A stretch of DNA of 64,000 nucleotides from Klebsiella phage vB_KpM_FBKp34, in sequence record MW394390.1; one strand, written 5' to 3'. Shown here piece after piece: positions 3,834 to 54,671 of this stretch. Position 1 is the first letter of the stretch. Every line of letters begins with the position of its first letter. The translations under genes were made by a program, and so were the position numbers. The notes under the pieces are model-generated. The model was not told the DNA's origin, did no database searches, and saw only the letters and a program-made list of their open reading frames with translations.

Positions 3834-4358
3834 CTATCCCCAGTTATTCCACCAAGTTGCATAAGTGTTTATAGGTAGACCATTAAAATTAATAAACTCG
3901 TATAGTTTATTCACATAAGTTATTTGATCACCTAATCCACAATCAATATGAGGGTTATCATCACCAAAATCTGGGTATTCCCATTCAGCCTGTGGAGAAA
4001 TTTCTGCATCAACAAAAATAACACCGTCGTCTGTTACTACAGCAACTTTTAGATCATAAATTCTTAATTGTCTATCCCATGTAGATGAGAAGGAATCAAT
4101 AGAGTTAACTCCTTCTTCTTGTCTAATTTCATTAAGAAAAATTGTATCTACATCTTTTTTATTACGGGCTTTACCTATAATCTCTTGTTGATAGGGTATC
4201 CCATAATCTTGGTTTATAAACCACTCAGTTTCAAAAGTATTAAGTCTTATTTTCAATCTTTGACCTAACTCTTCGTCTTTCTTAGATGTAAAAGTTAAAT
4301 CTTGATCCACAAAAATAAGATCATTTGTATCCTTATCAAGTTTAAAATCAAAACTCAT
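3834..4358 (-). CDS. baseplate wedge protein (gp25 / gpW / Mu gp46-like)
   Basis: 174 aa immediately downstream of the spike gene; size and position typical of the gp25/W family. Confidence 0.45.
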   Translation of the reverse strand: MSFDFKLDKDTNDLIFVDQDLTFTSKKDEELGQRLKIRLNTFETEWFINQDYGIPYQQEIIGKARNKKDVDTIFLNEIRQEEGVNSIDSFSSTWDRQLRIYDLKVAVVTDDGVIFVDAEISPQAEWEYPDFGDDNPHIDCGLGDQITYVNKLYEFINFNGLPINTYATWWNNWG

Positions 4359-5014: not shown

Positions 5015-5980
5015 TTAAGCCCCCTGTTTTGATATAGTAGCATCTATTGGAACTGCTTCTACACGGGTTGTCCACTCAGACTCTTCATAACTTCCTTTAT
5101 GAGTAACTTTTGTGACTCTAAATGCACCGTCATAGCCCCTGGCCTTGACATAAATTGTAGAATCAGGAATAATAGCACCATCAAGTTGACACTCCAAAGA
5201 TATACCGTTTGCAGGTGTTTTATTCTTTTTAGATTTTTTCTCACTCTGACTTAATGGCTCTGGTCCCTGTTTGAGTCCCGTCTCATCTGACAAATACGCA
5301 GATTGCTGAGTTAATCTTTTATTATTAGGTAACACATAAATAGAGCCGTCTTGAATTGAATAAGAGTGGTTAATCCCACTGGCAAGATTTCCTAATTGAT
5401 TAGATGTTCCACCTACAAAAGAAACAGGCGTTGTAGTTGTAGGCACAGAAGAGTCTATTTCAATTCTACCTACAGGAGTTCCTAAATCTTTTGCTAGGTC
5501 ATTAAAGATTTGATCATATGTTGTCCCAGCAGGGTACGTCCTTGACGTTAGTGCCTCTTTTACATTCACAGCACCATCTGCACATTTAAGTGTAGTTTGT
5601 CTTGTTTCTCTTTCCCATTTATCAATTATTTTTGCAACAGTGCCTTTAAATACAGTTTTAACTTCTCCAACCCAGCCAGCTTCTAAAATTAGAACCAAAT
5701 AGTTTTCAATATTAGTTTTAATATAATTTACAAGGTTATCATCTAAGTTAAATATTGTTATCTCAGTACTATTAGGTTCTTTATTATTATCTTTCTTTAT
5801 TGTAAAGGAAATTTGATGAGTTGTCAACTCATAAGCATTTGTTCTTCCTTTAGAATCCTGAATATTTTTATCCAAATCAACAGGCACTGTGAAGGAAGAA
5901 TTTGTGGATAAATTTTGTGATAAAGGTACACCAGTACCAAATCTTAACCTGTACTGATGAAGAAATCTATAATTTTCCAT
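5015..5980 (-). CDS. baseplate hub / tail protein (Mu gpP / P2 gpD-like)
   Basis: 321 aa between tape-measure-proximal genes and spike; order matches Mu-type baseplate modules. Confidence 0.4.
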   Translation of the reverse strand: MENYRFLHQYRLRFGTGVPLSQNLSTNSSFTVPVDLDKNIQDSKGRTNAYELTTHQISFTIKKDNNKEPNSTEITIFNLDDNLVNYIKTNIENYLVLILEAGWVGEVKTVFKGTVAKIIDKWERETRQTTLKCADGAVNVKEALTSRTYPAGTTYDQIFNDLAKDLGTPVGRIEIDSSVPTTTTPVSFVGGTSNQLGNLASGINHSYSIQDGSIYVLPNNKRLTQQSAYLSDETGLKQGPEPLSQSEKKSKKNKTPANGISLECQLDGAIIPDSTIYVKARGYDGAFRVTKVTHKGSYEESEWTTRVEAVPIDATISKQGA

Positions 5981-7045: not shown

Positions 7046-8989
7046 CTATTCCCCTAAAATACTTTGGTTAATTTGGAAGTTCTGATCATCAAATGCCCAC
7101 TCAATTCTTTGGTCAGCACGTGCATCAATCAGGTTGCCAAATTCTTCAGAAGGTTCTACTTGAACTACTACAGGCGCTGGTGTAATATTTAAATTATACT
7201 GTGGAAGATTAAATGGATTGTTACCGCCAAAATTATTTTGATTAGCATACATAGCACTAGGTGCATTAGAACCACTTGAGAACCAGTTATCCCAAAGGTA
7301 TGTTAACTGATCAGATAGACTCATGGAAGTAGGATCAATGACAGCCAAAGGTAAATCACTTTGAGTGATACCTAAAGAAGCCTGGAAGTTCTTTCTCCAA
7401 TCTAAGAGGCTGTTAATAGCCCCACCAAGTTTAATAAATGAACCAGTTAAATCACCTGTGACTTTACCTAAAGCTTGAATAACAGGAACGAAACCTGACA
7501 ATTCTTTTGAAAGATTGTTGCTATTTATACCTGCATCTTTCAAGCCTTGAACAAACGCAGCACCAAATTGACCTTCCATAAAATCTGCTGTTTTACTAAA
7601 GGTTGCAGACATATCAGAAAGATCTTTCAAATTATCTCGTTGAACTTTGGTATAAAGCAAACCTGCGTCTGTTAGTTCATTAAGAGTTGCGACAACATTT
7701 TCACCATCTCTACCAACAGATTTAGCAATATAAGAGAAGTCATTTATTGCTTCTGCTAACGCAGTAAATTCAGAATCTGTAAGTTTTGCACTTTTACGTA
7801 AACCTTCAAGTAAGACTGCCAGTTCAACTGGGCCTTTTACGCTTCTTAGTGTTGCCAGTGCACCTTCACGGCTAAAACCACCACGTTCAGTCATGATCTT
7901 TAACCAGTCAGCCATTTCACCACCACCACTAAAAGACCAATCCCCAGTTTTCTTATTTTGTTTCCATTCACCAAGGCTTAACTGACCAATTTTATCCTGC
8001 ACGTCTTTAGAAATATCAGAAATTTTCTCGAAAGATAGATCGAATCCTGTTGATCTTAGGGCTGCAAGTTGCAAAGCTTGGGTTTCTTCAGGCATGATAC
8101 CCATAGAACTAACACGACTTAACCCTCTAGATTGCAATACGGCGCTCTGGAGAGCCATGACAGCACGAGAGTAGCCCATGTAACCTAATGCACCTGCACC
8201 TATTAATCCAGCCCCTGCAATAGCACCACCGAAGCCTAGACCACCTGATCCACCTTTTCTTAAGTCACCAATCCTCTCTCTGAGAGTCATATGCTCTTTT
8301 GAAAGATCTCTTGTGCTTCTTAAAAGTTGTCTTGTGCTTTCTCTGTATTGGTCTAGTTCTATTTTACCAGAACGGTATCTCCTGTTTAAATTTTCCAGTT
8401 CTCTTGAGAATTGTCTAGCTTCTTTAGCACCAAGATTTAATCTACTCACTTCAAAAGCTAATTGATTACTTCTTAAGCCAGATTTACTATCTCGTTTTTC
8501 TTGATTTCTTCTTGCAAGCAAAGCTTCTCTTGCGATCCTTTCACGAATTTTATCTACGTTTTTTTGCTGATCAAGCATATCCCTAGTATATCTTGCCATT
8601 TCAGCATTTTGTCTTTTTACCCTTTCGTTATCTTCTGCAAAAGCTTTTTTAAAAACGTTAGCACTATCTCTTGCAGATTTCCCAGGTGTCTTATTTACAC
8701 CAAGTATTTTATTATATGAGTTTTGAACATTTTTTGCCGCTTGTTTACTTCTAAGCTTTGCAACATCTTCCATAGCTTTTATATGAGCATCCATAACTTG
8801 GGTTGCTGTTTTTTTAGCATTTCTTACGGTTGCTCTCGCAGCTACAGGAGATGCTATGGCATTAGAAGCAGTTTTAGAAAACTCTTGTTGAAGCTTTTTC
8901 ATGTCATTTCTGACAGCTTTCAAACTCTTGGTGTCTGTTTTATAGACAATCCTGTTGACAAGTGTTGCGGCTTCTACCTTAGTAGCCAT
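7046..8989 (-). CDS. tail tape measure protein
   Basis: 647 aa, long coiled-coil Arg/Lys/Glu-rich N-half, Gly-rich hydrophobic segment GGSGGLGFGGAIAGAGLIGAGALGYMGY; located after the chaperone pair. Confidence 0.75.
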   Translation of the reverse strand: MATKVEAATLVNRIVYKTDTKSLKAVRNDMKKLQQEFSKTASNAIASPVAARATVRNAKKTATQVMDAHIKAMEDVAKLRSKQAAKNVQNSYNKILGVNKTPGKSARDSANVFKKAFAEDNERVKRQNAEMARYTRDMLDQQKNVDKIRERIAREALLARRNQEKRDSKSGLRSNQLAFEVSRLNLGAKEARQFSRELENLNRRYRSGKIELDQYRESTRQLLRSTRDLSKEHMTLRERIGDLRKGGSGGLGFGGAIAGAGLIGAGALGYMGYSRAVMALQSAVLQSRGLSRVSSMGIMPEETQALQLAALRSTGFDLSFEKISDISKDVQDKIGQLSLGEWKQNKKTGDWSFSGGGEMADWLKIMTERGGFSREGALATLRSVKGPVELAVLLEGLRKSAKLTDSEFTALAEAINDFSYIAKSVGRDGENVVATLNELTDAGLLYTKVQRDNLKDLSDMSATFSKTADFMEGQFGAAFVQGLKDAGINSNNLSKELSGFVPVIQALGKVTGDLTGSFIKLGGAINSLLDWRKNFQASLGITQSDLPLAVIDPTSMSLSDQLTYLWDNWFSSGSNAPSAMYANQNNFGGNNPFNLPQYNLNITPAPVVVQVEPSEEFGNLIDARADQRIEWAFDDQNFQINQSILGE

Positions 8990-19309: not shown

Positions 19310-20854
19310 TCAATGTCTAGTGTTTAAACCAGATCTTTTAGTCAACGTTGGTGCTGATACTCTCGGAATAGCTGCTGCTACAAAACTTCTTTCTTTACAC
19401 AAAGCATTGTATGCAGAAGCCGCAGCATCTGCCCAGTCATCTTTCCTTTCACTTGTAGACCTTTCACCATTAAATGCTTCTAGTTCCTTATAGAAAGCCT
19501 CTAAGGTGGCTTTATTTGTAAAACTATCTTCTACAATACAAACTAGACCATTTTGACATGCACTTGAAAATGGCATAAATCTTGTAAGCTTAGATTTATT
19601 ATTAGGCATAGGATCTGGTTTTACTTTAAAACCTAAAATATTTAATTTCTTGGCGCTTTCTTGATATTCTACTTGTCCTGCTGCACCTGGATCTTTTGGT
19701 AGAATTACTGTAACATGTTCACCATCGATCTCTGTTTGATTTTTTATTAACAGGTCTCTAGAGCCAGCCCTTTTCCTGAATTTACCAGCTATCATTGTCT
19801 TTTCATCTAATGTTTCTGGATCAAAATCACCAAAAATATAAAAAATACCATCTGCACTTTTACCCATTTTAACTGAGGCTGTAAAGTCAGGGTGTCTGTT
19901 CTGGTCTGAAGGTTCAGAAGATGCTTTATCCCACGCTCTAACAAGTTTTAAAGGTGGTACTTCACTTCTAGTCACCTTTGTTAACCACTCTCTTTGAAAG
20001 TTGTTGGACCCTTCAGCACGGGCAAACCAGCAGCCATCTAACAGCCTTGCACGGTTAACTTTGCTTTGTGCTTTTAATGCAGATAAATATTTAGGGTTAG
20101 CTTTAATAAGTTCTGGATTATCAAAAATTGTTCCTCCAATGAAAGCAAAAGTCATTGGTGGTACATACTTTGTTTCTCCAGTTGTAGGATCTTCAACATA
20201 ACAAAGTTCTGGATAATCTTTAGCTAATTCTTCTTCTGTATCTGCAAATACTGGTGCATCGTTCACAATAACGAAATATCTTACAACACCACATCTATCT
20301 TCTCTTGGATAACCTTTTTCATCAAGATACCATAAAACCCAATTCATTACCCAAGAATCAGGATCAGGGTTTGTAGAGGCCATACAGAAAGAGTCAGTCT
20401 CTGATGCTGAACGGAGACGACCTAAAAGATATAAGAATTGGGTTTGAGTAAAGTGTGTTAATTCGTCAAAAGCCACCATTGAATATTGAAGACCCTGATG
20501 GTTCCCCTCTGCGTCATTTTCATTTTCTAGGTGTGTAAATTTAAGTGTCCCACCGCTTGTGTTGTTAAATATGATTTCCATATCTTTTTCACGAATCTTA
20601 GGTCTTAGTGGGGAGTATAGTTTTTTAGCCTCAGTAAATAAACCACCTGCCGCTTTTAATGGTGGAGATGTTCTACGGAAAAGTACTCCTTCAAAATCTT
20701 TATCATTTGCAGCATACTTTAACGCTTTTAAGAGAATCAATCTTGACTTACCAGATCCTGCTGCACCACCATAGATAAGAACATCCACTTTCTTATCTAA
20801 CGCCATTTTTTGCTTACCTTCTTGGGCTTTAAATGTGATTACATTTCTTGCCAA
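19310..20854 (-). CDS. terL: terminase large subunit
   Basis: 514 aa with Walker A YGGAAGSGKS near the N-terminus and a C-terminal nuclease-like region. Confidence 0.85.
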   Translation of the reverse strand: MARNVITFKAQEGKQKMALDKKVDVLIYGGAAGSGKSRLILLKALKYAANDKDFEGVLFRRTSPPLKAAGGLFTEAKKLYSPLRPKIREKDMEIIFNNTSGGTLKFTHLENENDAEGNHQGLQYSMVAFDELTHFTQTQFLYLLGRLRSASETDSFCMASTNPDPDSWVMNWVLWYLDEKGYPREDRCGVVRYFVIVNDAPVFADTEEELAKDYPELCYVEDPTTGETKYVPPMTFAFIGGTIFDNPELIKANPKYLSALKAQSKVNRARLLDGCWFARAEGSNNFQREWLTKVTRSEVPPLKLVRAWDKASSEPSDQNRHPDFTASVKMGKSADGIFYIFGDFDPETLDEKTMIAGKFRKRAGSRDLLIKNQTEIDGEHVTVILPKDPGAAGQVEYQESAKKLNILGFKVKPDPMPNNKSKLTRFMPFSSACQNGLVCIVEDSFTNKATLEAFYKELEAFNGERSTSERKDDWADAAASAYNALCKERSFVAAAIPRVSAPTLTKRSGLNTRH

Positions 20855-20975
20855 TTTTCCTCCAAATATAATAACTTCCTAATGTTATCATAACCCAATG
20901 TTAAAATTTAGTCAAATTTACATAAAAGAAAACCCGCACAAGGCGGGTTATATTTTTAAATTAATTCTGTACTAT

Positions 20976-23924: not shown

Positions 23925-25330
23925 CAGGCTATTTGACATCCTCCCCATCCTAAAGGATGGGGATTCCTAATTCATCGAGGTTTCTAATGAAACCTCTCCA
24001 AAGGCTTAAATTTCCGTGTGTCCCACGGTATTTATTTCTATATAACTATAATATATTAAATTCTTTTATGCAGCAAGAGCTTTACAATTAAAAATTTCTA
24101 AACCTCTTTTATGAATATTTAAAGCAGCATTAATGTCTCGGTCATGGTCTGTTTTACAAGAAGGACACACCCAATGACGAACATTAAGTTTCAATTCCTC
24201 AAGAACATGACCACAACATGAACAAGTTTTAGACGAGGGATAGAATTGTTCTATCTTCACAATGCTACGTCCAAACCAGGATGCTTTATACTCAAGTTGC
24301 CTTACAAACTCACCCCAAGATGCATCAGCAATATGTTTTGCCAATTTTCTATTTTTAATCATATTTTTAACTTTCAAAGTTTCAGTAGAAATTATTTGGT
24401 AAGTTTTTACTAAATTAGATGTTGCTTTATGCAATGCATCACGGCGAGAATCACTAACTTTAGCATGTGTTTTAGCAACTTTCAAACGCATTTTATTATA
24501 ATTGCTTCCACCTTTTTTCATCCGACTAAGTTTTCTCTGCAAACGTGCGAGACGTTTAGCATATTTCTTTGTAAACTTGCCATTTTTACCTTTAAGTCCA
24601 TCTGCTGTAATATAAAGGTCTTTTAAACCAAGATCAATGCCTGTTGTCTTACTCGATATTGGCAGTTCTTCAATTTCAGTTTCACACAAACAAGACACAA
24701 AATATCTACCAGATGCATCTTTACTGATAGTAATTGACGAAGGGTGACTTGGTAATTCACCATAACTCCATTTAACATCCAGCGAGACTTTCATTGATTT
24801 GGCAATGAAAAGTTGACCATTAATGTATTTAAAAGCATTCTTCGTGAGATTAAATGAGTAACTATTATCATAACGGCTTTTGAACTTAGGAAATCTAGCT
24901 CTTCCAGAGAAAAAGTTGCTATAAGCTTTTTCTTGGTTTCTCAGTTCTTGTTGCAGTGCTACCACTGAAACTTCGTTAAGCCACTCATATTCTTTTTTAA
25001 CTTTAGTTAACTCTCTCGATGCTTCGGCAAAGTTAATCTTATTTTTATCTTTTTCATAAGCCTCTTTTCTCCAAGCTAATATATGGTTATAGATAAAACG
25101 ACAAGAACCAAATGTCTTAGCAAGAAGGATTTTTTGTTCTTGTGTTGGATAAAAACGCATTTTATAAGCTTTTAAAATAATCTTTTTCATTTGATCCCTT
25201 TCTAACTATCGTTCTCAGTTTGGTCAGAATTCACAAAGTGATCTAAATCATATTTAATAAATCATAAAATTGACATCCTCCTCACCCTAAAGATTGTGGA
25301 GTTTCTCCTTCATAGAACCTTATAATCAAG
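23925..25330 (-). mobile_element. IS200/IS605-family insertion element (TnpB only, no TnpA)
   Basis: tnpB flanked by related subterminal hairpins (RE: CCCCATCC-TAAA-GGATGGGG and GAGGTTTC-TAAT-GAAACCTC; LE: GACATCCTCCTCACCCTAAAGATTGTGGAG, GGTGA-TGTCC-TCACC); both ends share TTGACATCCTCC...CCTAAAG; boundaries approximate. Confidence 0.6.
24066..25190 (-). CDS. tnpB: TnpB (OrfB) RNA-guided nuclease-like transposon protein
   Basis: 374 aa; C-terminal zinc finger CSCCGH...CPSCK and RuvC-III-like [12 protein letters not shown] motif. Confidence 0.8.
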
Positions 25331-27840: not shown

Positions 27841-27887
27841 TTGCTTCTCCTGTGGTTTGTCATCTCTGACTTTTAGTTATAAAAATT

Positions 27888-27964
27888 GGTCTCCCCTACA
27901 GGATTCGAACCTGTGACCCGATGCATCCAAAGCACCCACGCTGACCAGACTGCGCTAAGGAGAG
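27888..27964 (-). tRNA. tRNA-Pro (anticodon TGG)
   Basis: Acceptor CTCTCCT/AGGGGAG, anticodon arm GGTGC-TTTGGAT-GCATC, T-arm ACAGG-TTCGAAT-CCTGT, CCA. Confidence 0.75.
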
Positions 27965-27970
27965 ATAATT

Positions 27971-28045
27971 TGGAGGGTAGTAGTGGAATCTAACCACTCT
28001 AATACTGTTTTGCAGACAGATACATGAACACTCTGACAACTACCC
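27971..28045 (-). tRNA. tRNA-Cys (anticodon GCA), weak D-stem
   Basis: Perfect acceptor GGGTAGT/ACTACCC, anticodon loop CTGCAAA, T-arm AGTGG-TTAGATT-CCACT, CCA; D-stem poorly paired. Confidence 0.55.
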
Positions 28046-28733: not shown

Positions 28734-28847
28734 TGGCGGTGAATTCAGGAATCGAACCTGAGCCTACTCCATGACAAGGGAGATTGAATGCTGTAAAACT
28801 TCTCTAAGAAGTTATTTTTAGTTATTCTACCACTAAACTAATTCACC
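28734..28847 (-). tRNA. 114-nt tRNA-Leu-like (anticodon TAG) with about 38 nt of extra sequence
   Basis: Perfect acceptor GGTGAAT/ATTCACC, D-arm GTTT-AGTGGTA-GAAT, canonical anticodon arm AACTT-CTTAGAG-AAGTT, extra hairpin CTCC-CTTGTCAT-GGAG containing a TTTACAGCA repeat motif, perfect T-arm TCAGG-TTCGATT-CCTGA, CCA. Confidence 0.5.
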
Positions 28848-28930: not shown

Positions 28931-28940
28931 TTAATTTGGT

Positions 28941-28990
28941 GTGGGAAGATGGAGTCGAACCAGCGAAGACGTATGTCGGGAGTTTTACTA
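28941..28990 (-). pseudogene. orphan tRNA 3' fragment (T-arm, acceptor 3' strand, CCA)
   Basis: GCTGG-TTCGACT-CCATC T-arm then TTCCCAC-A-CCA; no complementary 5' acceptor strand or D-arm within 150 nt upstream. Confidence 0.35.
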
Positions 28991-29029
28991 TTCTCCAGTG
29001 TATTTGCTGTATAACTACATCGGCTAATT

Positions 29030-29170
29030 TAATTATCAGAAGCTATCTTTTCTATACTTTCGCTCTACCAGGCTGAGCTATTCCCCGTCAGTTGTTCGGG
29101 GAAGCAGGATTTGAACCTACGACCAAAAGTTCCCATTAGATTTTATTTGCTGTAAAGCTTCTTTGATAAA
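29030..29170 (-). ncRNA. candidate Y-RNA-like ncRNA containing a circularly permuted tRNA-like module
   Basis: On the minus strand a tRNA 3' half (ACTTT-TGGTC-GTAGG-TTCAAAT-CCTGC-TTCCCCG-A) precedes, across an 8-nt linker, a 5' half (CGGGGAA-TA-GCTC-AGCCTGGTA-GAGC-G-AAAGT). The halves pair perfectly (7/7 acceptor, 5/5 anticodon-stem). Flanks can pair as AGAAGCT/AGCTTCT and ATCT/AGAT. Lies directly downstream of the Ro60-like gene on the same strand. Confidence 0.4.
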
Positions 29171-29359
29171 ATTGTCGGCAGAAGAATTTATTTTCTATGC
29201 ATGAAATTTTAAAATTGCTGTATTTCTTCTTGCCAAGATTTATTTATAAAAGATTCAGAAGATATTCTTTTCGCTACATTTCAAGTGTAATGTTGTTTTA
29301 TATTTGCTGTAAATCTTCAAGAACCTTTTATAGATAAATCTTTGTTTCTAAACTATGTA

Positions 29360-29395
29360 TTTACTTTAGCATAGGGGCTAACACCTTGTCAACCC
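29360..29395 (-). promoter_or_regulatory. sigma70-like promoter with extended -10 (minus strand) upstream of the tRNA/ncRNA block
   Basis: Minus strand reads TTGACA-15 nt-TGCTAAAGT. Confidence 0.4.
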
Positions 29396-29409: not shown

Positions 29410-30849
29410 TTAGAAATCATAACGTGGTACGTTAACTAACTTCTGCATAACTTTAACAGGTTCTAACTCACCTGTCAAGAGTCCTTTCATAATCGCTGGT
29501 GAAAATCCTGAAACCAATGCTGTACCTTTCTGACCTACTTGAACTGGCACGTTGCCTCTCTGATGGGCTGCAAGATTCCAGAAAACAAGCTGAGGCATGG
29601 TATATCCAGACTGACTGTACATGAGAGCAATAGACTCAAAGTTTGTCATACCTGAAATAGCTTGGTTAAATTCCATATCAGAGAATACGATAACTTTACT
29701 AGGCATATCCCCTTGTGTCAAGTTGTGTTTCTTACCTAACTCAAGAATTCTTGCAAAAGCTTTCATAATATCAGTTGATCCATACTCAACATGTTCTTGT
29801 ACCTTAGCAAGTTTCTGTGCAAGAGTCAAGGAACTTCCTACATCAATAAAATAAGGATTTGTTGAATACACCATCATCTGATCTTTAAAGATGCCTTTAT
29901 TACGTTCAGCAATGTAAAGAGATAAAGCAATCCCTACATGAAGAGCATAAATATCACCAGAAACTTTTGCGTTATCAAAAGTCATTGAACCAGAAACATC
30001 AGATAAACAGATAATGTTTTCACTTGTACCTTCAGTATAATCTGGCAATGCTTTCCATTGGGCATTTGCTACTGACTTATCTCCGTGCATACAAGATTTT
30101 ACAATATCATACGGATAAACAGCACCTGCATTGATCTTAGCTTGTCCATCTTCTTTAATCAGGCTTTCACGATACTGTGCATAACGTTCACTGTCCACAC
30201 GATTAAATAGTGCCTGATAACGTGCTGCTGCAAGTGATGGCAGCTTGCTATAATCAATAGCACCGTATTCTTTGCGAGAAAGACTCTGTTCCACAGTATT
30301 AGACAAAGAGGACAAGAGTTTATTATATTCCTGATAACTCAGTTTCATAAATTTAGCAAGTACCTTTGCATTATTTTTATTTTTAACTGTGTTATTTCCA
30401 CGCATACGTGGCATCCATTTTGCGCATAGTCCTGCGTTAGTCTTATCTGTTAAACAGTCAGCGATAAACTGCAAGGCTTCTTTTTCAACTGGTGTTCCAA
30501 TAGCTTCAAGAACATCGTCCCAACGACCAAGTTCTGGAATCTTAACTAACAAACGTGTTGCGAGTTTTGGATTCTGGTCACAAATGTTTTTAAATGTTTT
30601 TCTAAAAATATTTCTTTCACCCATACCTCCGCGAATATCTCGGGAGTACAGAAGAATACGTACAGCAGTTTCAGCATCTTCACTAAGAGCTTGCCAGAAA
30701 AGATCATCAGAAACAACATTCGGATTCTTACGTAAAGTACCAATCTGGAAAAACAAATCCACATTTTTATTCAGTGAAGATTCATGAGTAACTGCACCAT
30801 TAAGTGTCAGTTGGGACTTAGTACGGGATGCATCAAACAGCTTAGACAT
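29410..30849 (-). CDS. putative Ro60/TROVE-like RNA-binding protein with C-terminal von Willebrand A domain (DUF2828-type)
   Basis: 479 aa; C-terminal vWA with MIDAS LSDVSGSM; N-terminal ~270 aa helical domain of Ro/TROVE-like character (domain call by memory, not verified). Confidence 0.45.
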   Translation of the reverse strand: MSKLFDASRTKSQLTLNGAVTHESSLNKNVDLFFQIGTLRKNPNVVSDDLFWQALSEDAETAVRILLYSRDIRGGMGERNIFRKTFKNICDQNPKLATRLLVKIPELGRWDDVLEAIGTPVEKEALQFIADCLTDKTNAGLCAKWMPRMRGNNTVKNKNNAKVLAKFMKLSYQEYNKLLSSLSNTVEQSLSRKEYGAIDYSKLPSLAAARYQALFNRVDSERYAQYRESLIKEDGQAKINAGAVYPYDIVKSCMHGDKSVANAQWKALPDYTEGTSENIICLSDVSGSMTFDNAKVSGDIYALHVGIALSLYIAERNKGIFKDQMMVYSTNPYFIDVGSSLTLAQKLAKVQEHVEYGSTDIMKAFARILELGKKHNLTQGDMPSKVIVFSDMEFNQAISGMTNFESIALMYSQSGYTMPQLVFWNLAAHQRGNVPVQVGQKGTALVSGFSPAIMKGLLTGELEPVKVMQKLVNVPRYDF

Positions 30850-30931
30850 AATTAACTCCTTTGTTTATTAACTCGTTCGAAATGAACTATAGCAAAAGTT
30901 ACAAACAGAAGTCAAGTATGTTTTTAAAATT

Positions 30932-31247: not shown

Positions 31248-32102
31248 TTAGAAATTATCTATAACAGTTTCACCAGCTTCTAACCAAACTATCTTAAAAA
31301 TTATACGGTTAGCATTACCTGATGTGTTAATTAAATTTACTTGAAAATTAGATCCTTTAGGGAAAATTTGATATCCTTGGTCTCTTGAGCTAGATGCTGA
31401 AGTCCTTTGTGACGGATTACTTCCGCTTGCTGGGATAAAAGATGGTATATCATATAAAGAACCTATTCCTGTAGGGTTCCCAGATAAAACATGAATACTC
31501 ATTGTTGAATTTGAACCAAATCCTTGGTTACTTTTCACAGGGGTAATTAAAGAAGCATTAGTTTTTCCTGTACTACCTACATAAGTTCTTGCTTCAAACC
31601 CTGTATAAAAAGGTGTAAAATTGGTAGACACAATAGCGCACTCTTTGTCTGAAGGGACTATAAAATCAATCCATATGTTACCACCATTTGCAATGGTAAG
31701 ATCCACTATTGCACTGTACAACCTACCATCGATAGATGCTGCCTCTATTTGGGTTATTGTTTGTGTAAGTATTCTTGGTTCAATCAACCTTAAAAGTTTT
31801 CTAGAAGATGACCTCACATCTGAAGCCAAAACTTTATGTGCTGCTAATCTTCCCAAACCATAGGTTGAATCAGCTATAACAAAAACACCCTCCATTTGAG
31901 AGGGAACATAAAATTCTTCTTTTGAAGAAATTATATTAACTGTTGATTTATCAATATTTGTTACAGAACTCCCAAAATAAATCCTTATTGGAACTTCAGA
32001 GATATTTTCAAGAAGATAAGAAAATTTAGAATCAAAACCAGATACAGTATAAAGATTAGTCCAAGTATCATTAGAAATATTTGGAGTGAGAACTCTATTC
32101 AT
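31248..32102 (-). CDS. hypothetical protein (beta-rich, Ser/Thr/Asn-rich)
   Basis: 284 aa ORF. Confidence 0.45.
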   Translation of the reverse strand: MNRVLTPNISNDTWTNLYTVSGFDSKFSYLLENISEVPIRIYFGSSVTNIDKSTVNIISSKEEFYVPSQMEGVFVIADSTYGLGRLAAHKVLASDVRSSSRKLLRLIEPRILTQTITQIEAASIDGRLYSAIVDLTIANGGNIWIDFIVPSDKECAIVSTNFTPFYTGFEARTYVGSTGKTNASLITPVKSNQGFGSNSTMSIHVLSGNPTGIGSLYDIPSFIPASGSNPSQRTSASSSRDQGYQIFPKGSNFQVNLINTSGNANRIIFKIVWLEAGETVIDNF

Positions 32103-32191: not shown

Positions 32192-33877
32192 TTAAAGTTG
32201 TGACGCTGCTCGTTCACGAATCGTTGTCAGGTCTTCATCGACAATCAGCTTGCCGTTGTAGAACACACGACGCAACTCGTTATCGTCAGACTGTACATCT
32301 TCAAGCTGACAATTGTCAACCAGTTTCAGTTCGCCATTCTCATCACGAACAACCTTCAGGAAACCTTTTGCAGATTTCTTACCGAGGTCAGTCTTCGGTT
32401 CTTTGACAACCATGATCTGCTGACCATCAATCACAGCGCCAGTTGCCTTAACAGCCATACCCAGTGAATCGCGGGTTGTGTACTGCGTGGTGAAAGAACC
32501 GACGCCGTAAACAATGTTGCTGGATGCAAAACCTTTTTCTTTCAAACGTTCAAAGATGTCTTTTGCACGAGCAACAGTGATGGAGTCACCGTAAATCAGA
32601 CCAACATGACTATCAAGAACTTTGTAACCTTTAGTGTTAAATTCACCACCGAAGATTTCCCACAGACACTGGATTGCACCTTTAACTTCATGCTCTTCAA
32701 GACCTGAAGGTTGGAAGTCGAAGTAGGCATTATTCTCATCGTCAACAAGAATCCGGTAGTATTTACCTTCAATCTTGGCAACTTCTGAATTTGAATCTTC
32801 CTGTAGTGCTGAGTGTGCATCAGACCAGTCATCAAACTCACCGAGGCTACGATAGCCAGCAATGATATGCTCTGGAATACCAGAATCAGGACGGAATACT
32901 ACACGACCATCACGGGCCATGATGTCCTGTTTCAGGATCGCTGCTGCTTTGGTGATAATCGCCCAAAAGTCATAACTGTCTGCCACGTAGGAAACAAAAC
33001 CTTTAGGGAAAATTTCCGTAATGTAACGACGCAGGAACTCAACCTCAGCCAAGAAACGCGCTTCATCCAGAGTCAATTCAGGGTGTTCACCTTGTAAACG
33101 ACCAACGATGAAACCGATGTTCGTTGTTGCAACAGAGTGTTCAGATGCAGGAATAGAACCAGCAACGAACTTGCCTTTCATGTTGTAATAACGATTTGCA
33201 TACAGAATTGCTGGGATAGTATCAGTACCCATTGAGTTGATCAGTTGACCAAACTCACTCTGTGCTGCGTCGTGCGTCCCAGATTCACCACGATATGCGA
33301 AACAGTGGTTCTGGAAAGGCACATGCAAGTTGTTATCGCAAGTCTCAGCAGCCCATTTTTCAGACAGCTTGCGATACTGCCAGAACGTAGTTGCAGTCGT
33401 AATAGTTTTCCAAGTTTCTGCGGAGATCACACTTTCCAGGAAGTTAGGCAACCAGTAAAAATCAGGATGCGTGTTCTGAATGGTGAACAGCGGAACCTGT
33501 ACCGGAGACAGAGTACCTTCAGGAATCGAACGGATTTCCAGTGGCAGATAACCAAGGTCATGCAGCTTTTCAAATCCCCAAGTTTCAACCATGTTAGGAC
33601 CAATACTCAGATCACAAATTTCTTTGTACTGTTCAATAGCTTCTTCTTTACTTTTCTTGAAGAAGTTTTCGTTAAACATGTCGATAAGGAACCACTTAAT
33701 GAATCCCTGAAGACCTGCCATCATAACACGCTGGTCGTTATCAGCGAAGTGAATGAAGTGCTTCGCATTTCGTGGTGTCATGTTGTCCTGAACAATCTCA
33801 GAGCGTTTATCGTACATAGAAATGTGGCTTGGCTTATACCAATCCGCAAACATGATAGGGTTTTCTTTATACAGCAT
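32192..33877 (-). CDS. nadV: nicotinamide phosphoribosyltransferase (Nampt / NadV-like)
   Basis: 561 aa; NAPRTase-family motifs (GTDTIPA, DSYD, GLIYGDSIT, VYGVGSFT); co-localised with prs, nadR-like and pnuC. Confidence 0.7.
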   Translation of the reverse strand: MLYKENPIMFADWYKPSHISMYDKRSEIVQDNMTPRNAKHFIHFADNDQRVMMAGLQGFIKWFLIDMFNENFFKKSKEEAIEQYKEICDLSIGPNMVETWGFEKLHDLGYLPLEIRSIPEGTLSPVQVPLFTIQNTHPDFYWLPNFLESVISAETWKTITTATTFWQYRKLSEKWAAETCDNNLHVPFQNHCFAYRGESGTHDAAQSEFGQLINSMGTDTIPAILYANRYYNMKGKFVAGSIPASEHSVATTNIGFIVGRLQGEHPELTLDEARFLAEVEFLRRYITEIFPKGFVSYVADSYDFWAIITKAAAILKQDIMARDGRVVFRPDSGIPEHIIAGYRSLGEFDDWSDAHSALQEDSNSEVAKIEGKYYRILVDDENNAYFDFQPSGLEEHEVKGAIQCLWEIFGGEFNTKGYKVLDSHVGLIYGDSITVARAKDIFERLKEKGFASSNIVYGVGSFTTQYTTRDSLGMAVKATGAVIDGQQIMVVKEPKTDLGKKSAKGFLKVVRDENGELKLVDNCQLEDVQSDDNELRRVFYNGKLIVDEDLTTIRERAASQL

Positions 33878-54200: not shown

Positions 54201-54671
54201 ATGAGTCGAAAAGATTTTAAAGAAACAACCTGGGGTGCAGTCACTGAGGAAACTATTAAAAATACTGAAACCTGGAAAGCATATGTAGACCACAATGGTA
54301 ATCCCACAGTAAAACGACAGAACCTTATTTCAGCTTGTCTTTATACGCTTGGATATGATATTGATAGTGAGTTTAAATATAAAGAGCAACGTTTTGTCAC
54401 AGTTAGATCTTCTGAAGATAACACCAAAGGAATTGAAACAAGTATTTTTACTTTTCCAGTAAAACGTGGACATAAATTAGAGCACAGTTTTAAGAATATC
54501 CCATTGTTAAACTTTGATGTAGGTCAAAATACTAAAAAAATCAATTTATCAGAGTTTGGTCTCGAATATTATCAAACAGCAAAAAATAAATCTAAGAAGA
54601 AGCGAACCCGTGATCAGTTTATTGATGAAATTCTAAATAAATCAAATTCTTACAATCTTGATATTGAGTAA
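54201..54671 (+). CDS. hypothetical protein
   Basis: 156 aa ORF. Confidence 0.4.
   Translation: MSRKDFKETTWGAVTEETIKNTETWKAYVDHNGNPTVKRQNLISACLYTLGYDIDSEFKYKEQRFVTVRSSEDNTKGIETSIFTFPVKRGHKLEHSFKNIPLLNFDVGQNTKKINLSEFGLEYYQTAKNKSKKKRTRDQFIDEILNKSNSYNLDIE

What the first reader, a model, noticed from the sequence alone, without database searches (positions are those of the whole stretch)
29055..29134. Circularly permuted tRNA gene arrangement (3' half, then 8-nt linker, then 5' half)
On the minus strand a canonical tRNA 3' half reads ACTTT(39-43)-TGGTC-GTAGG-TTCAAAT-CCTGC-TTCCCCG-A. It is followed after ACAACTGA by a canonical 5' half reading CGGGGAA-TA-GCTC-AGCCTGGTA-GAGC-G-AAAGT(27-31). Acceptor 7/7 and anticodon stem 5/5 pair perfectly between the halves, and the D-arm and T-arm are textbook. 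The break is in the anticodon loop (AT | TGGGA would give anticodon TGG). Either this is a Y-RNA tRNA-mimic (see previous finding), a genuinely permuted tRNA gene, or the footprint of a rearrangement.
Basis: seen in the sequence. Interest (0 to 1): 0.8.

Follow-up and report, generated by a model that had tools for sequence, protein, structure and literature searches.

The report
Phage Y-like RNA mimicking a tRNA
The "back-to-front tRNA" is real, but it is the tRNA-shaped part of a small non-coding RNA lying next to a phage gene for a Ro60-like RNA-binding protein, and it belongs to a large, apparently undescribed RNA family found beside that gene in many phages.

Summary
On the minus strand, 29056-29130 holds a tRNA 3' half, a 9-nt loop and a tRNA 5' half, with all canonical tertiary positions intact. 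ARAGORN calls the rejoined halves tRNA-Pro(UGG). It is not a decoding tRNA or a rearrangement scar.

It is the core of a ~126-nt RNA (29037-29162) closed by a 7-bp stem (P1) with an unpaired UUACAGCAA motif. It lies 248 nt downstream of a 479-aa gene whose predicted fold matches Ro60, although no sequence method detects TROVE.

The same stem-plus-CNGCAA module lies beside this gene, on its strand, in 78 of 97 viral loci and in Felixounavirus, mycobacteriophage, Campylobacter and Listeria phages. The module encloses nothing, a T arm, a permuted tRNA body, or sits inside a normal-order tRNA. In 11 lineages the T arm, closed acceptor and D arm covary strongly. Rfam's YrlA model hits at 39.6 bits, below its gathering score of 69.

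Best reading: a Y RNA-like tRNA mimic partnered with a divergent Ro60 homologue. Binding and function are inferred, not shown. A 52%-identical homologue, Bas63 gp130, counters the Ppl defence (preprint). The module closely resembles Dictyostelium Class I RNAs; that link is untested.

The parts
29037..29162 (-). Y3: the complete Y-like RNA that contains the finding (~126 nt). Order: P1, UUACAGCAA, linker, permuted tRNA-Pro-like body, A-rich linker, P1, G.
   Evidence: 98% identical in KP13-16, with no difference inside a helix. Orthologue in L002 with compensatory changes in P1 and the T stem.
29156..29162 (-). P1 5' strand, AGAAGCU.
   Evidence: Pairs 7/7 with 29038-29044. Formed in the MFE fold. 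The 13 best core-model hits all have a P1 of different sequence.
29147..29155 (-). Conserved single-stranded motif UUACAGCAA (family core CNGCAA).
   Evidence: Unpaired in the MFE fold.
29126..29130 (-). ACUUU, equivalent to the anticodon-stem 3' strand (tRNA positions 39-43).
   Evidence: Pairs 5/5 with AAAGU 29056-29060.
29104..29120 (-). T arm, GUAGG-UUCAAAU-CCUGC.
   Evidence: helix 1 is 100% paired in 11 lineages, and 3 of its 5 pairs show compensatory changes.
29081..29103 (-). Closed acceptor hairpin: UUCCCCG, loop AACAACUGA, CGGGGAA.
   Evidence: all 7 pairs change on both sides across lineages, with 95.8% of cells paired.
29062..29078 (-). D arm, GCUC-AGCCUGGUA-GAGC.
   Evidence: 88.6% paired, and 2 of 4 pairs are compensatory.
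29056..29060 (-). AAAGU, equivalent to the anticodon-stem 5' strand (positions 27-31).
29038..29044 (-). P1 3' strand, AGCUUCU, followed by G.
29410..30849 (-). Gene for a 479-aa Ro60-like protein: Pfam DUF2828 plus the vWA-like DUF7788, with an invariant DxSxS...T...D MIDAS pattern.
   Evidence: Pfam. AF2 model pLDDT 88.4, pTM 0.88. The top 11 Foldseek PDB hits are all Ro60/TROVE, E 1.8e-10 to 1.3e-7, TM 0.46-0.61. Invariant D284, S286, S288, T359, D391. 52% identical to Bas63 gp130.
29363..29392 (-). Sigma-70-like promoter, TTGACA-18-TAAAGT with an extended TG, heading the RNA array.
   Evidence: This is a consensus match only.
29256..29318 (-). Y1: minimal module (P1 GAAGAU/AUCUUC, UUACAGCAA, small hairpin, UG).
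   Evidence: (sub-threshold Dicty_Class_I_RNA hit, 25.2 bits).
29179..29230 (-). Y2: minimal module (P1 AGAAGAA/UUCUUCU, AUACAGCAA).
   Evidence: (23.6 bits to Dicty_Class_I_RNA).
28937..29018 (-). Chimera: the 5' part of a second permuted Y-like RNA (Y4 of KP13-16) fused to the 3' end of tRNA-Tyr by a ~950-bp deletion between two GGTTCGA T loops.
28734..28847 (-). Normal-order counterpart: a tRNA-Asp(GUC)-like RNA ending GCCA, with the module (hairpin AACUUCU-uag-AGAAGUU plus UUACAGCAUU) inserted between the D arm and the anticodon arm.
   Evidence: Rfam tRNA hit of 47.7 bits with 51 nt in place of 11. The hairpin-then-motif scan finds it. ARAGORN calls tRNA-Asp only after the module is deleted.

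Best explanation
29037-29162 (-) encodes a ~126-nt non-coding RNA of the Y RNA kind.

Shown:
- It folds into a 7-bp closing stem (P1), an unpaired UUACAGCAA motif next to the 5' strand of P1, and an L-shaped tRNA-Pro-like body. The acceptor stem of that body is closed by a loop, and the P1/motif scaffold stands where the anticodon loop would be.
- The same scaffold recurs beside a gene for a Ro60-fold protein in very different phages.
- The tRNA-like helices are maintained by compensatory substitutions.

Inferred:
- The RNA is transcribed from the promoter-like site just downstream of the Ro60-like gene, together with two minimal relatives (Y1, Y2) and the tRNA array, and is then cut out of the precursor.
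- The Ro60-like protein binds P1 plus the motif, as Ro60 binds the terminal helix of Y RNAs.
- The variable insert, here a tRNA body without an anticodon loop, presents a tRNA shape to a tRNA-recognising factor. It would act either as a tether that brings that factor to the Ro-like protein, or as a decoy.
- The complex supports infection, probably by countering host defence or RNA damage.

With a 7-bp acceptor stem and a 9-nt loop, the RNA may also be cut by RNase P into a two-piece tRNA-like molecule, as reported for M. smegmatis YrlA. This is inference only.

The confidence given (0.78) is for the identity: a Y-like RNA gene partnered with the adjacent Ro60-like gene. The tether/decoy and counter-defence steps alone would rate about 0.35.
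For: Anatomy. ARAGORN calls the rejoined halves tRNA-Pro.

Protein: the predicted fold's top 11 PDB matches are all Ro60/TROVE, including Thermus phage phiLo Ro60 (on the model). The MIDAS residues are invariant.

Linkage: stem-plus-CNGCAA modules lie within -800/+1000 nt of the gene in 39 of 43 and 39 of 54 non-identical viral loci. Counts are 123 and 54 on the gene strand against 8 and 14 on the opposite strand. Modules are also found by eye in wV8, Faith1, CP81, a Listeria phage and Bas63.

Covariation in 11 lineages: 95.3% of cells paired against 63% in shuffles and 39-50% with slid partners. The covariation score is 0.885 against 0.247, reached by 0 of 500 shuffles. All 7 acceptor pairs are compensatory.

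Specificity: of 126 distinct hits of the core model, the top 13 and about 20 others that overlap no tRNA are enclosed by P1 plus the motif. None of the hits that straddle two real tRNAs is.

Rfam YrlA matches full length at 39.6 bits, and at 42.1 and 40.1 bits on the L002 and L049 homologues. The YrlA architecture (T, closed 'acceptor', D inside a Ro-binding stem) is described in PMC4201824.

Function: Bas63 gp130 is 52% identical. A preprint reports it as structurally Ro60-like, located upstream of the tRNA genes, and a counter of the Ppl defence (PMC11482910).
Against: - No experiment shows that the RNA is made, processed or bound by the protein.
- The Rfam YrlA score is well below the gathering score of 69.
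- The Ro-binding motif of known Y RNAs (GNCGAAN0-1G) is absent. AUCUAAUG matches only 4 of its 6 fixed positions.
- The protein has no detectable TROVE sequence signature.
- gp130 alone rescues T7, which has no such RNAs, on the Ppl strain. The protein can therefore act without its cognate RNAs, at least in that assay.
- The linkage is not universal under my definitions: 19 of 97 loci have no module, partly because of the limits of the scan.
- The permuted tRNA-like insert is present in only some lineages.
- RNAfold alone prefers a non-cloverleaf fold (-33.4 against -27.0 kcal/mol), as it does for many tRNAs.
Confidence: 0.78

Rival explanations
1. A genuinely permuted tRNA gene. The transcript would be circularised or its ends joined, then reopened at the acceptor loop, to give a functional tRNA-Pro(UGG), as in the red alga Cyanidioschyzon merolae.
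For: The halves are complete, and ARAGORN calls the rejoined sequence tRNA-Pro. Two homologues (KP13-16 Y4, L049) encode ACCA directly after the acceptor 3' strand, which suggests the acceptor loop can be opened to give a CCA end.
Against: - The window already has a standard tRNA-Pro(tgg) at 27887-27964.
- Joining would require removing about 36 nt that include the most conserved part of the family (P1 and the motif).
- Break points differ among homologues: in the anticodon loop, between the D and anticodon arms, or after the anticodon arm. Some homologues have no acceptor stem or only a T arm.
- Many close the acceptor with a 4-nt loop that cannot give free ends.
- From my own knowledge, the known permuted-tRNA pathway uses the eukaryotic/archaeal splicing endonuclease, which bacteria lack.
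Confidence: 0.03
2. A rearrangement scar or pseudogene left by tandem duplication and deletion in a tRNA cluster, with no function.
For: The cluster does rearrange. A ~950-bp deletion between two T loops created a chimera 20 nt downstream, at 28937-29018.
Against: - The element is intact in KP13-16, and none of the differences fall in a helix.
- The same architecture occurs in phages of Enterobacteria, Mycobacterium and uncultivated hosts, with compensatory changes in every acceptor pair.
- The rejoined halves are no closer to any resident tRNA than tRNAs are to each other (best 53 of 74).
Confidence: 0.02
3. A member of the canonical YrlA family, serving a canonical Ro60/Rsr (TROVE) protein.
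For: The domain order is the same, and there is a full-length sub-threshold YrlA match. AUCUAAUG aligns with the CGAAUG part of the YrlA consensus.
Against: - The score of 39.6 is below the gathering score of 69, and no homologue reaches that score in 17 loci.
- The GNCGAAN0-1G motif is not met.
- No TROVE protein was found among the ORFs tested, and the partner is DUF2828.
- The element the family shares is the CNGCAA motif, which the descriptions of YrlA and the phiLo Yrl RNAs do not mention.
Confidence: 0.07
4. The P1-plus-CNGCAA unit is mainly a cis-acting processing or regulatory signal for the tRNA-array transcript and the Ro-like mRNA, for example a nuclease entry site or translational operator. 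On this reading it is not the handle of a stable ribonucleoprotein, and the tRNA-like inserts are processing intermediates or tRNA precursors with an excisable insert.
For: Modules sit between tRNA genes and inside otherwise normal tRNAs (window 28734-28847; L040-L045). In many loci a module directly abuts the Shine-Dalgarno sequence of the Ro-like gene. Deleting the module restores an ARAGORN-callable tRNA-Asp.
Against: - Stand-alone minimal modules and closed-acceptor forms have no tRNA to release.
- The window has an ordinary tRNA-Asp right next to the module-bearing one.
- The anticodon loop of the module-bearing tRNA-Asp-like RNA has 8 nt.
- A leader operator is compatible with the main explanation, as autoregulation by the same protein.
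Confidence: 0.1

Closest known systems
YrlA, the bacterial Y RNA-like tRNA mimic (Rfam RF02553; Chen et al. 2014, PMC4201824)
   Same: A ~100-130-nt RNA encoded next to a Ro60-fold protein. A terminal stem formed by the two ends encloses a tRNA-like domain in the order T arm - closed 'acceptor' stem-loop - D arm, with the tRNA tertiary positions kept. A 7-bp acceptor is as in M. smegmatis YrlA, which RNase P cleaves. Rfam's model aligns full length.
   Different: The score is 39.6 against a gathering score of 69. The GNCGAAN0-1G helix is lacking, and the family's invariant feature is a single-stranded CNGCAA motif beside P1. The partner protein is DUF2828 + DUF7788, not TROVE by sequence. The inserts vary much more: none, T arm only, elbow only, full tRNA body with three different break points, or the normal-order tRNA form.
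Thermus phage phiLo phiRo60 with Yrl1/Yrl2 (PMC12135203), and the phage Ro60/Y RNA pairs noted by Chen et al. (mycobacteriophages, CcrColossus, Bacillus phage G)
   Same: A phage-encoded Ro60-fold protein with Y-like RNA genes immediately adjacent. phiRo60 (9kop, 9l5y) is among the top structural matches of the window protein.
   Different: Those proteins are recognisable Ro60 homologues, and their RNAs were identified through the CGAA motif in a stem-bulge-stem. Here the motif and the protein sequence family differ.
Bas63 gp130 (PhageMaP preprint, PMC11482910)
   Same: 52% identical protein in the same position at the head of a tRNA array. The authors noted the Ro60-like fold and guessed that some neighbouring 'tRNA genes' might be Y RNAs.
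   Different: The preprint does not identify any RNA. The modules found here lie in the unannotated gaps of the array (Bas63 20073-20907 in L070), not among the annotated tRNAs. Its Ppl-counter phenotype needs only the protein.
Class I RNAs of Dictyostelium (Rfam RF01414; Kjellin et al. 2021, PMC7919456)
   Same: A short stem joins the 5' and 3' ends. The conserved motif CCUUACAGCAA lies directly 3' of the 5' strand; the same 9-mer UUACAGCAA occurs in Y1 and Y3, and Y2 has AUACAGCAA. The interior is variable and A/U-rich. Lengths are 42-65 nt, against 43-68 nt for the phage minimal modules. Both have a 5' G and a 3' C-UG(U). The Rfam model hits Y1, Y2 and an L049 module at 25.2, 23.6 and 32.2 bits.
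   Different: All scores are below the gathering score of 41.5. Class I RNAs are eukaryotic, have their own DUSE promoter, are reported as unique to dictyostelids, and are known to bind the RRM protein Rnp1A. No link to a DUF2828 or Ro-like protein is known, and I could not test whether dictyostelids encode one.
Circularly permuted tRNA genes (Cyanidioschyzon merolae) and two-piece (permuted) tmRNA genes
   Same: The 3' half of the tRNA(-like) structure is encoded upstream of the 5' half.
   Different: Those genes yield a decoding tRNA or a functional tmRNA after processing. Here there is no anticodon loop, ARAGORN and Rfam find no tmRNA, and the flanks form a conserved protein-type scaffold.

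Membership tests
YrlA / bacterial Y RNA (RF02553) | tRNA-like domain in the order T arm - closed acceptor-like stem-loop - D arm, with tRNA tertiary positions | tested here: met
YrlA / bacterial Y RNA (RF02553) | 5' and 3' ends pair to form the stem that carries the Ro-binding helix | tested here: met
   P1 is 7 bp. Whether it is the protein-binding site was not tested.
YrlA / bacterial Y RNA (RF02553) | Conserved GNCGAAN0-1G motif on the 5' strand (Chen et al. 2014) | tested here: not met
   The aligned stretch is AUCUAAUG, with G1 and G4 replaced. Most homologues lack even this.
YrlA / bacterial Y RNA (RF02553) | Score at or above Rfam's gathering threshold (69 bits) | tested here: not met
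   39.6 bits. No YrlA hit at the gathering score in the window or in 17 related loci.
YrlA / bacterial Y RNA (RF02553) | Encoded next to a Ro60 orthologue (TROVE-domain protein) | tested here: inconclusive
   The neighbour has the Ro60 fold and the MIDAS residues, but no TROVE match in Pfam or in PDB sequence or profile searches.
YrlA / bacterial Y RNA (RF02553) | Bound by the Ro60 protein in vivo | not testable with these tools
   Needs immunoprecipitation or gel-shift assays.
Ro60 protein family | HEAT-repeat ring plus C-terminal vWA domain with MIDAS | tested here: met
   AF2 model pLDDT 88.4. Full-length Foldseek matches to 2i91, 1yvr, 9nep, 9kop and 9l5y. D284-x-S286-x-S288, T359 and D391 are invariant in 54 sequences.
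Ro60 protein family | TROVE sequence signature (Pfam PF05731) | tested here: not met
   Only PF11443 and PF25043 match, in four divergent members.
Permuted tRNA gene giving a functional tRNA | 3' half encoded upstream of the 5' half | tested here: met
Permuted tRNA gene giving a functional tRNA | Ends can be joined to restore a 7-nt anticodon loop, with the break point and tRNA identity conserved in relatives | tested here: not met
   The ends are embedded in the conserved P1/motif scaffold. Relatives have other break points, other identities (Thr, Lys, Asp), or lack acceptor or anticodon stems.
Permuted tRNA gene giving a functional tRNA | Circular or end-joined processing intermediate and aminoacylated product | not testable with these tools
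   Needs RNA sequencing.
Dictyostelium Class I RNA (RF01414) | Terminal stem plus the 11-nt motif CCUUACAGCAA next to its 5' strand; 42-65 nt | tested here: inconclusive
   Y1 and Y2 have the stem and (U/A)UACAGCAA and are 63 and 52 nt long. Scores of 25.2 and 23.6 bits are below the gathering score of 41.5. This applies to the neighbours Y1 and Y2 and to the scaffold of Y3, not to the tRNA-like core.
Dictyostelium Class I RNA (RF01414) | Dictyostelid origin with the DUSE promoter | tested here: not met
   This is a phage sequence with a sigma-70-like promoter.
tmRNA (one- or two-piece) | tRNA-Ala-like domain plus tag reading frame | tested here: not met
   ARAGORN finds no tmRNA. Rfam tmRNA scores 6.6 bits on the T loop only.

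The most novel reading that the evidence does not exclude
The stem-plus-UUACAGCAA unit may be the recognition handle of a large, unrecognised class of Ro60-like (DUF2828) ribonucleoproteins. This class would run from phages of several bacterial phyla to eukaryotes and their giant viruses. On this reading the enigmatic Class I RNAs of Dictyostelium would be the eukaryotic members of the same RNA class, that is, Y-like RNAs of a DUF2828-type protein. They share the terminal stem, the same UUACAGCAA motif in the same place, the same length range and the same 3' C-UG. Within phages, one protein would use a set of interchangeable RNA adaptors (hairpins, tRNA-Pro/Thr/Lys/Asp-shaped bodies), each directed at a different partner.
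Probability: 0.2. Interest if true: 0.85.

Novelty: new variant of a known kind. Interest (0 to 1): 0.68.

Why it matters
Ro60 and its Y RNAs are an old puzzle, and the role of the tRNA-like domain of bacterial Y RNAs is still unknown.

This locus points to a second, much larger phage branch of that system. tblastn finds the protein in 710 of 50,697 phage records, including relatives of well-studied phages such as Felix O1 and the Listeria and Campylobacter phages. Its RNA partners have gone unannotated, lying in 'empty' gaps of tRNA arrays or under small doubtful ORFs.

The family offers natural variation that could be used to find out what the tRNA shape is for. It includes permuted and normal-order tRNA chimeras, bodies resembling four different tRNAs, minimal hairpins, and copies in the mRNA leader of the protein's own gene.

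A homologue of the protein is reported, in a preprint, to counter a bacterial defence system. That gives a phenotype against which the RNAs can be tested directly.

Practically, tRNA gene finders and annotators miss or mislabel these genes.

Tried and rejected
- ARAGORN and Rfam at gathering thresholds find nothing at the locus. The YrlA lead appeared only with the E-value threshold.
- Sequence searches failed to link the protein to Ro60: phmmer and a 54-sequence profile against PDB and Pfam on four members. Only the predicted fold does.
- My first motif definition, C[AC]GCAA, gave a weak result in an independent set of loci: 27 of 54 loci, 36 against 10. Inspection showed a clade that uses CUGCAA. 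With CNGCAA the result is 39 of 54, 54 against 14. The linkage is strong but not universal under my scan.
- The core covariance model also hits junctions of tightly packed tRNA genes at up to 55 bits. I separated these with ARAGORN.
- The profile-based locus search returned only close relatives, at 41-61% identity, so I could not reach giant-virus or eukaryotic homologues.
- The AFDB fold library was unavailable, and the original Class I RNA pull-down paper is not held. I therefore could not test whether dictyostelids have a DUF2828 protein.
- Literature searches for DUF2828, YrlA plus phage, Ro60 plus phage, and the motif itself found no description of this RNA family.
- A recent copy of a resident tRNA is rejected, as is tmRNA.
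- Other stem-plus-motif matches in the window, such as 54569-54628 (+), lie inside ORFs and look like chance.
Full report
**1. The observation**

On the minus strand the sequence reads, 5' to 3':
- ACUUU (29126-29130)
- UGGUC
- T arm GUAGG-UUCAAAU-CCUGC (29104-29120)
- UUCCCCG (29097-29103)
- a 9-nt loop, AACAACUGA
- CGGGGAA (29081-29087)
- UA
- D arm GCUC-AGCCUGGUA-GAGC (29062-29078)
- G
- AAAGU (29056-29060)

The acceptor pairs 7/7 and the anticodon-type stem 5/5. The positions that build the tRNA L-shape are all present: U8, A14, G15:C48, the D-loop GG, T-loop U54/U55/C56/A58, G53:C61 and G26.U44.

ARAGORN finds 17 ordinary tRNAs in the window, all on this strand, and none here. When the halves are rejoined in silico with the flanking AU and UGGGA as the loop, ARAGORN calls a tRNA-Pro(tgg). 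In the native order it calls nothing.

**2. The element is larger than the finding**

The permuted core is enclosed by a perfect 7-bp stem, P1: AGAAGCU 29156-29162 pairs with AGCUUCU 29038-29044. Directly 3' of the 5' strand lies UUACAGCAA (29147-29155), which stays unpaired in the minimum-free-energy fold.

Two smaller RNAs just upstream have the same frame without a tRNA-like insert:
- Y1, 29256-29318: GAAGAU-UUACAGCAA...AUCUUC-UG
- Y2, 29179-29230: AGAAGAA-AUACAGCAA...UUCUUCU-G

A sigma-70-like site (TTGACA-18-TAAAGT with an extended TG, 29363-29392) precedes the three.

Downstream, at 28734-28847, Rfam reports a 'tRNA' with 51 nt where 11 are expected. It is a tRNA-Asp(GUC)-like RNA ending GCCA. 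The same unit is inserted between its D arm and anticodon arm, this time as a closed hairpin (AACUUCU-uag-AGAAGUU) followed by UUACAGCAUU. ARAGORN calls it tRNA-Asp only after the insert is removed.

The window therefore holds both topologies of one design. In one, P1 is open and the acceptor is closed (the finding). In the other, P1 is closed and the acceptor is open.

**3. The neighbouring gene**

The ORF ending 248 nt upstream on the same strand (29410-30849, 479 aa) matches Pfam DUF2828 and the vWA-like DUF7788. It also matches PHROG 850, 'RNA-binding protein'.

No sequence method links it to Ro60. A single-sequence search and a 54-sequence profile against PDB find nothing, and there is no TROVE match in four divergent members.

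An AlphaFold2 model built on 54 homologues is confident (pLDDT 88.4, pTM 0.88). Its 11 best Foldseek matches in the PDB are all Ro60/TROVE structures aligned over the full length: Xenopus and human Ro60, and the Ro60 of Thermus phage phiLo (E 1.8e-10 to 1.3e-7, TM 0.46-0.61). Isolated vWA domains follow. The MIDAS pattern D284-x-S286-x-S288 ... T359 ... D391 is invariant in the family. I conclude that the gene encodes a divergent Ro60 homologue.

**4. Relatives**

The closest phage is Klebsiella phage KP13-16 (Stephanstirmvirinae), 98% identical across the region. There Y3 differs at six positions, none inside a helix. One of these changes converts the G26.U44 pair into A26.G44.

KP13-16 has two more permuted tRNA-like RNAs downstream, Y4 and Y5. 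The window has lost them, together with tRNA-Thr, tRNA-Gln and most of tRNA-Tyr, through a ~950-bp deletion whose ends lie in two GGTTCGA T loops. This leaves a chimera at 28937-29018. A rearrangement scar exists, but it is next to the finding, not the finding itself.

The protein family is large: more than 6,500 hits in the protein collection and 710 phage records. It includes Felixounaviruses, mycobacteriophages (annotated 'Ro-like RNA binding protein'), and Listeria, Staphylococcus, Campylobacter, Enterococcus, Bacillus and Vibrio phages.

**5. Linkage of the RNA module to the gene**

In viral contigs fetched through the protein, a stem plus CNGCAA unit lies on the gene's strand immediately upstream or downstream of the gene.

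With a fixed definition (P1 of at least 7 bp with at most one G-U, ending within 6 nt of C[ACU]GCAA, and within -800/+1000 nt of the gene), the counts are:

| Set | Loci with a module | Modules on gene strand | Modules on opposite strand |
|---|---|---|---|
| First set | 39 of 43 non-identical loci | 123 | 8 |
| Second, independently fetched set | 39 of 54 | 54 | 14 |

My first, narrower motif gave only 27 of 54 in the second set. Inspection showed a clade with Bacteroidota-style promoters that uses CUGCAA and a large non-tRNA domain. In some of those loci the P1 strand lies further from the motif than the scan allows, so the figures are lower bounds, but the linkage is not universal.

The unit is also plain to see in Escherichia phage wV8, mycobacteriophage Faith1, Campylobacter phage CP81, a Listeria Pecentumvirus and Bas63. 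It is always in unannotated gaps or under small opposite-strand ORFs.

**6. The permuted tRNA-like insert is a conserved structure**

Eleven cores from different lineages were aligned: the window, KP13-16 Y4 and Y5, L002, L010, L013, L020, L049, L052, wV8 and Faith1. For the T arm, closed acceptor and D arm:
- 95.3% of cells form standard pairs, against 63% when partners are shuffled and 39-50% when they are slid by 1-3 columns.
- The covariation score is 0.885 against 0.247, reached by 0 of 500 shuffles.
- All seven acceptor pairs change on both sides.

A covariance model of this core scores 62.9 bits at the finding, against 22-26 bits at real tRNA-tRNA junctions in the window. The window sequence was one of the 11 training rows, so its own score is partly by construction.

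Among 126 distinct hits, the 13 best and about 20 more overlap no ARAGORN tRNA and are enclosed by P1 plus the motif. None of the hits that straddle two real tRNAs is. Because the hits were chosen on the core alone, this is an unbiased test of the core-scaffold association.

**7. Variety of inserts**

Inserts differ in several ways:
- nothing or a small hairpin (43-68 nt in all)
- a T arm only
- a T arm plus D arm with no acceptor
- a complete tRNA body

The break point also differs. In Y3 it is in the anticodon loop. In KP13-16 Y5 and L002b it lies between the D and anticodon arms; rejoined, this is a tRNA-Thr(ggt). In L052b it lies after the anticodon arm; rejoined, this is a tRNA-Lys(ttt).

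Some acceptor loops are 4 nt. Two homologues (KP13-16 Y4, L049) encode ACCA right after the acceptor 3' strand.

The rejoined Y3 is no closer to any resident tRNA than tRNAs are to one another (best 53 of 74).

These facts exclude a recent scar. They also make a decoding permuted tRNA very unlikely, because the only constant feature is the scaffold that such a pathway would have to discard.

**8. Comparison with known families**

Bacterial YrlA RNAs (Chen et al. 2014, PMC4201824) are encoded next to Ro60 orthologues. They carry a tRNA-like domain ordered T - closed 'acceptor' - D inside the Ro-binding stem. M. smegmatis YrlA, which has a 7-bp acceptor, is cut by RNase P and receives CCA.

Y3 works like a YrlA in every respect that can be read from sequence. 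Rfam's YrlA model aligns to it full length at 39.6 bits, and at 42.1 and 40.1 bits on L002 and L049.

It fails three membership criteria:
- the gathering score of 69, which none of 17 related loci reaches either
- the GNCGAAN0-1G motif (here AUCUAAUG)
- a TROVE-family neighbour

Known phage Ro60/Y RNA pairs, including phiLo Yrl1/Yrl2, also rely on the CGAA motif. I therefore file Y3 as a new variant of the Y RNA kind, not as a YrlA.

A preprint on Bas63 noted that gp130 looks like Ro60, lies upstream of the tRNA genes and counters the Ppl defence. It guessed that some of the annotated tRNAs might be Y RNAs. gp130 is 52% identical to the window protein. Bas63 carries four modules, one of them permuted tRNA-like, in the gaps of its array. 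I found no paper describing these RNAs.

**9. Mechanism**

Shown here:
- the anatomy of the element
- the conserved and covarying structure
- the Ro60 fold of the neighbouring protein
- the gene-RNA linkage

Inferred:
- co-transcription with the tRNA array and excision from the precursor
- binding of the protein to P1 plus the motif, by analogy with Ro60 and Y RNA, and supported by copies of the module that abut the Shine-Dalgarno sequence of the protein's own gene in many loci
- use of the tRNA-shaped insert as a tether or decoy for a tRNA-recognising factor, in the service of counter-defence or RNA quality control

The last step is the weakest. gp130 alone rescues T7 on the Ppl strain, so the RNAs are not needed for that particular effect.

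**10. An unexpected resemblance**

Rfam's model of Dictyostelium Class I RNAs hits Y1, Y2 and a module in L049 at 25.2, 23.6 and 32.2 bits, below its gathering score of 41.5.

Class I RNAs are 42-65 nt long. A short stem joins their ends, an 11-nt motif CCUUACAGCAA lies beside the 5' strand, the 5' G is conserved and the 3' end is C-UGU. Their function is unclear and they are described as unique to dictyostelids. The phage minimal modules share each of these features.

DUF2828 proteins occur in plants and in mimivirus-like sequences. I could not test whether dictyostelids have one. This may be convergence or chance. It is recorded as the most novel reading, at about 20% probability.

**11. Verdict**

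The 'Y-RNA tRNA mimic' alternative is supported, while the 'permuted tRNA gene' and 'scar' alternatives are not. The element is a new variant of a known kind and belongs to a widespread RNA family that, as far as I could find, has not been described. Interest 0.68.

Noticed in passing
Loci L005, L008, L010, L011, L013, L015, L017, L018, L020, L039-L045, L061, L062 (about 30-110 nt upstream of the gene start); also L009 3900-3960, L018 2799-2855, L021 3903-3964: In many relatives a stem-plus-CNGCAA module, in some a full permuted tRNA-like one using CCGCAA, lies in the 5' leader of the Ro-like gene, with the P1 3' strand directly abutting the Shine-Dalgarno sequence. This suggests translational autoregulation by the protein. 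The window's own leader (30850-30931) has no module.
   Followed up: partly
window 29256-29318 and 29179-29230 (-); L049 3394-3448: The minimal modules get sub-threshold hits (25.2, 23.6, 32.2 bits; gathering score 41.5) to Rfam's Dictyostelium Class I RNA model. They share its terminal stem, the UUACAGCAA motif, its length range and its 3' C-UG.
   Followed up: partly
window 28937-29018 (-), compared with L001 (KP13-16) 7090-8135: A ~950-bp deletion relative to KP13-16, with both ends in GGTTCGA T loops. It fuses the 5' part of a second Y-like RNA to the 3' end of tRNA-Tyr, and removes a third Y-like RNA, tRNA-Thr, tRNA-Gln and most of tRNA-Tyr.
   Followed up: yes
L070 (Bas63, MZ501086) 20695-20907; L066 (wV8) 5325-5540: Small 'hypothetical protein' CDS annotated on the opposite strand (bas63_0137, and wV8 gene 48) overlap the Y-like RNA genes and are probably spurious.
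   Followed up: partly
L095-L122 (e.g. L103 about 3990-4180), downstream of the gene: A clade with Bacteroidota-style promoters carries a ~150-nt RNA with P1 (e.g. ACUUGUUU/AAACAAGU), the motif variant UAUUCUGCAA and a conserved domain that is not tRNA-like (...CGUAGG...GGGUUAGAAGUAAA...). Its structure was not analysed.
   Followed up: no
window 24066-25190 (-): A 374-aa ORF with HTH_OrfB_IS605, OrfB_IS605 and Cas12f1-like TNB domains. This is a TnpB-type IS605-family gene inside the phage, between two tRNA blocks.
   Followed up: no
window 31248-32102 (-): A 284-aa ORF (PHROG 5335, function unknown) lies between the 80-aa ORF and the NAPRTase gene. KP13-16 has only a ~110-nt gap at that position, so this looks like an insertion in this phage.
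   Followed up: no
window 32192-33877 (-) and beyond; L001 10400-15614: An NAD-salvage cluster lies next to the locus: an NAPRTase-family protein, with prs, nadR and pnuC annotated in KP13-16. It may be relevant to NAD-depleting defences.
   Followed up: no
window 27974-28045 (-): Rfam calls a tRNA here (43.9 bits) that ARAGORN does not. It has an unusual D region and no encoded CCA, and its anticodon loop reads CUGCAAA (GCA, Cys).
   Followed up: no
L042 7285-7387; L062 7956-8053: wcaG RNA (79 bits) and PhotoRC-II RNA (55.6 bits) motifs occur in two related cyanophage-like contigs that also carry the Ro-like gene and module arrays.
   Followed up: no
L028, L040, L044 tRNA arrays (e.g. L028 374-431, L040 1357-1412): In some tightly packed tRNA arrays, the acceptor 3' strand of one tRNA is largely complementary to the acceptor 5' strand of the next. 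This gives 45-55-bit hits to the permuted-core model although both are ordinary tRNAs.
   Followed up: partly
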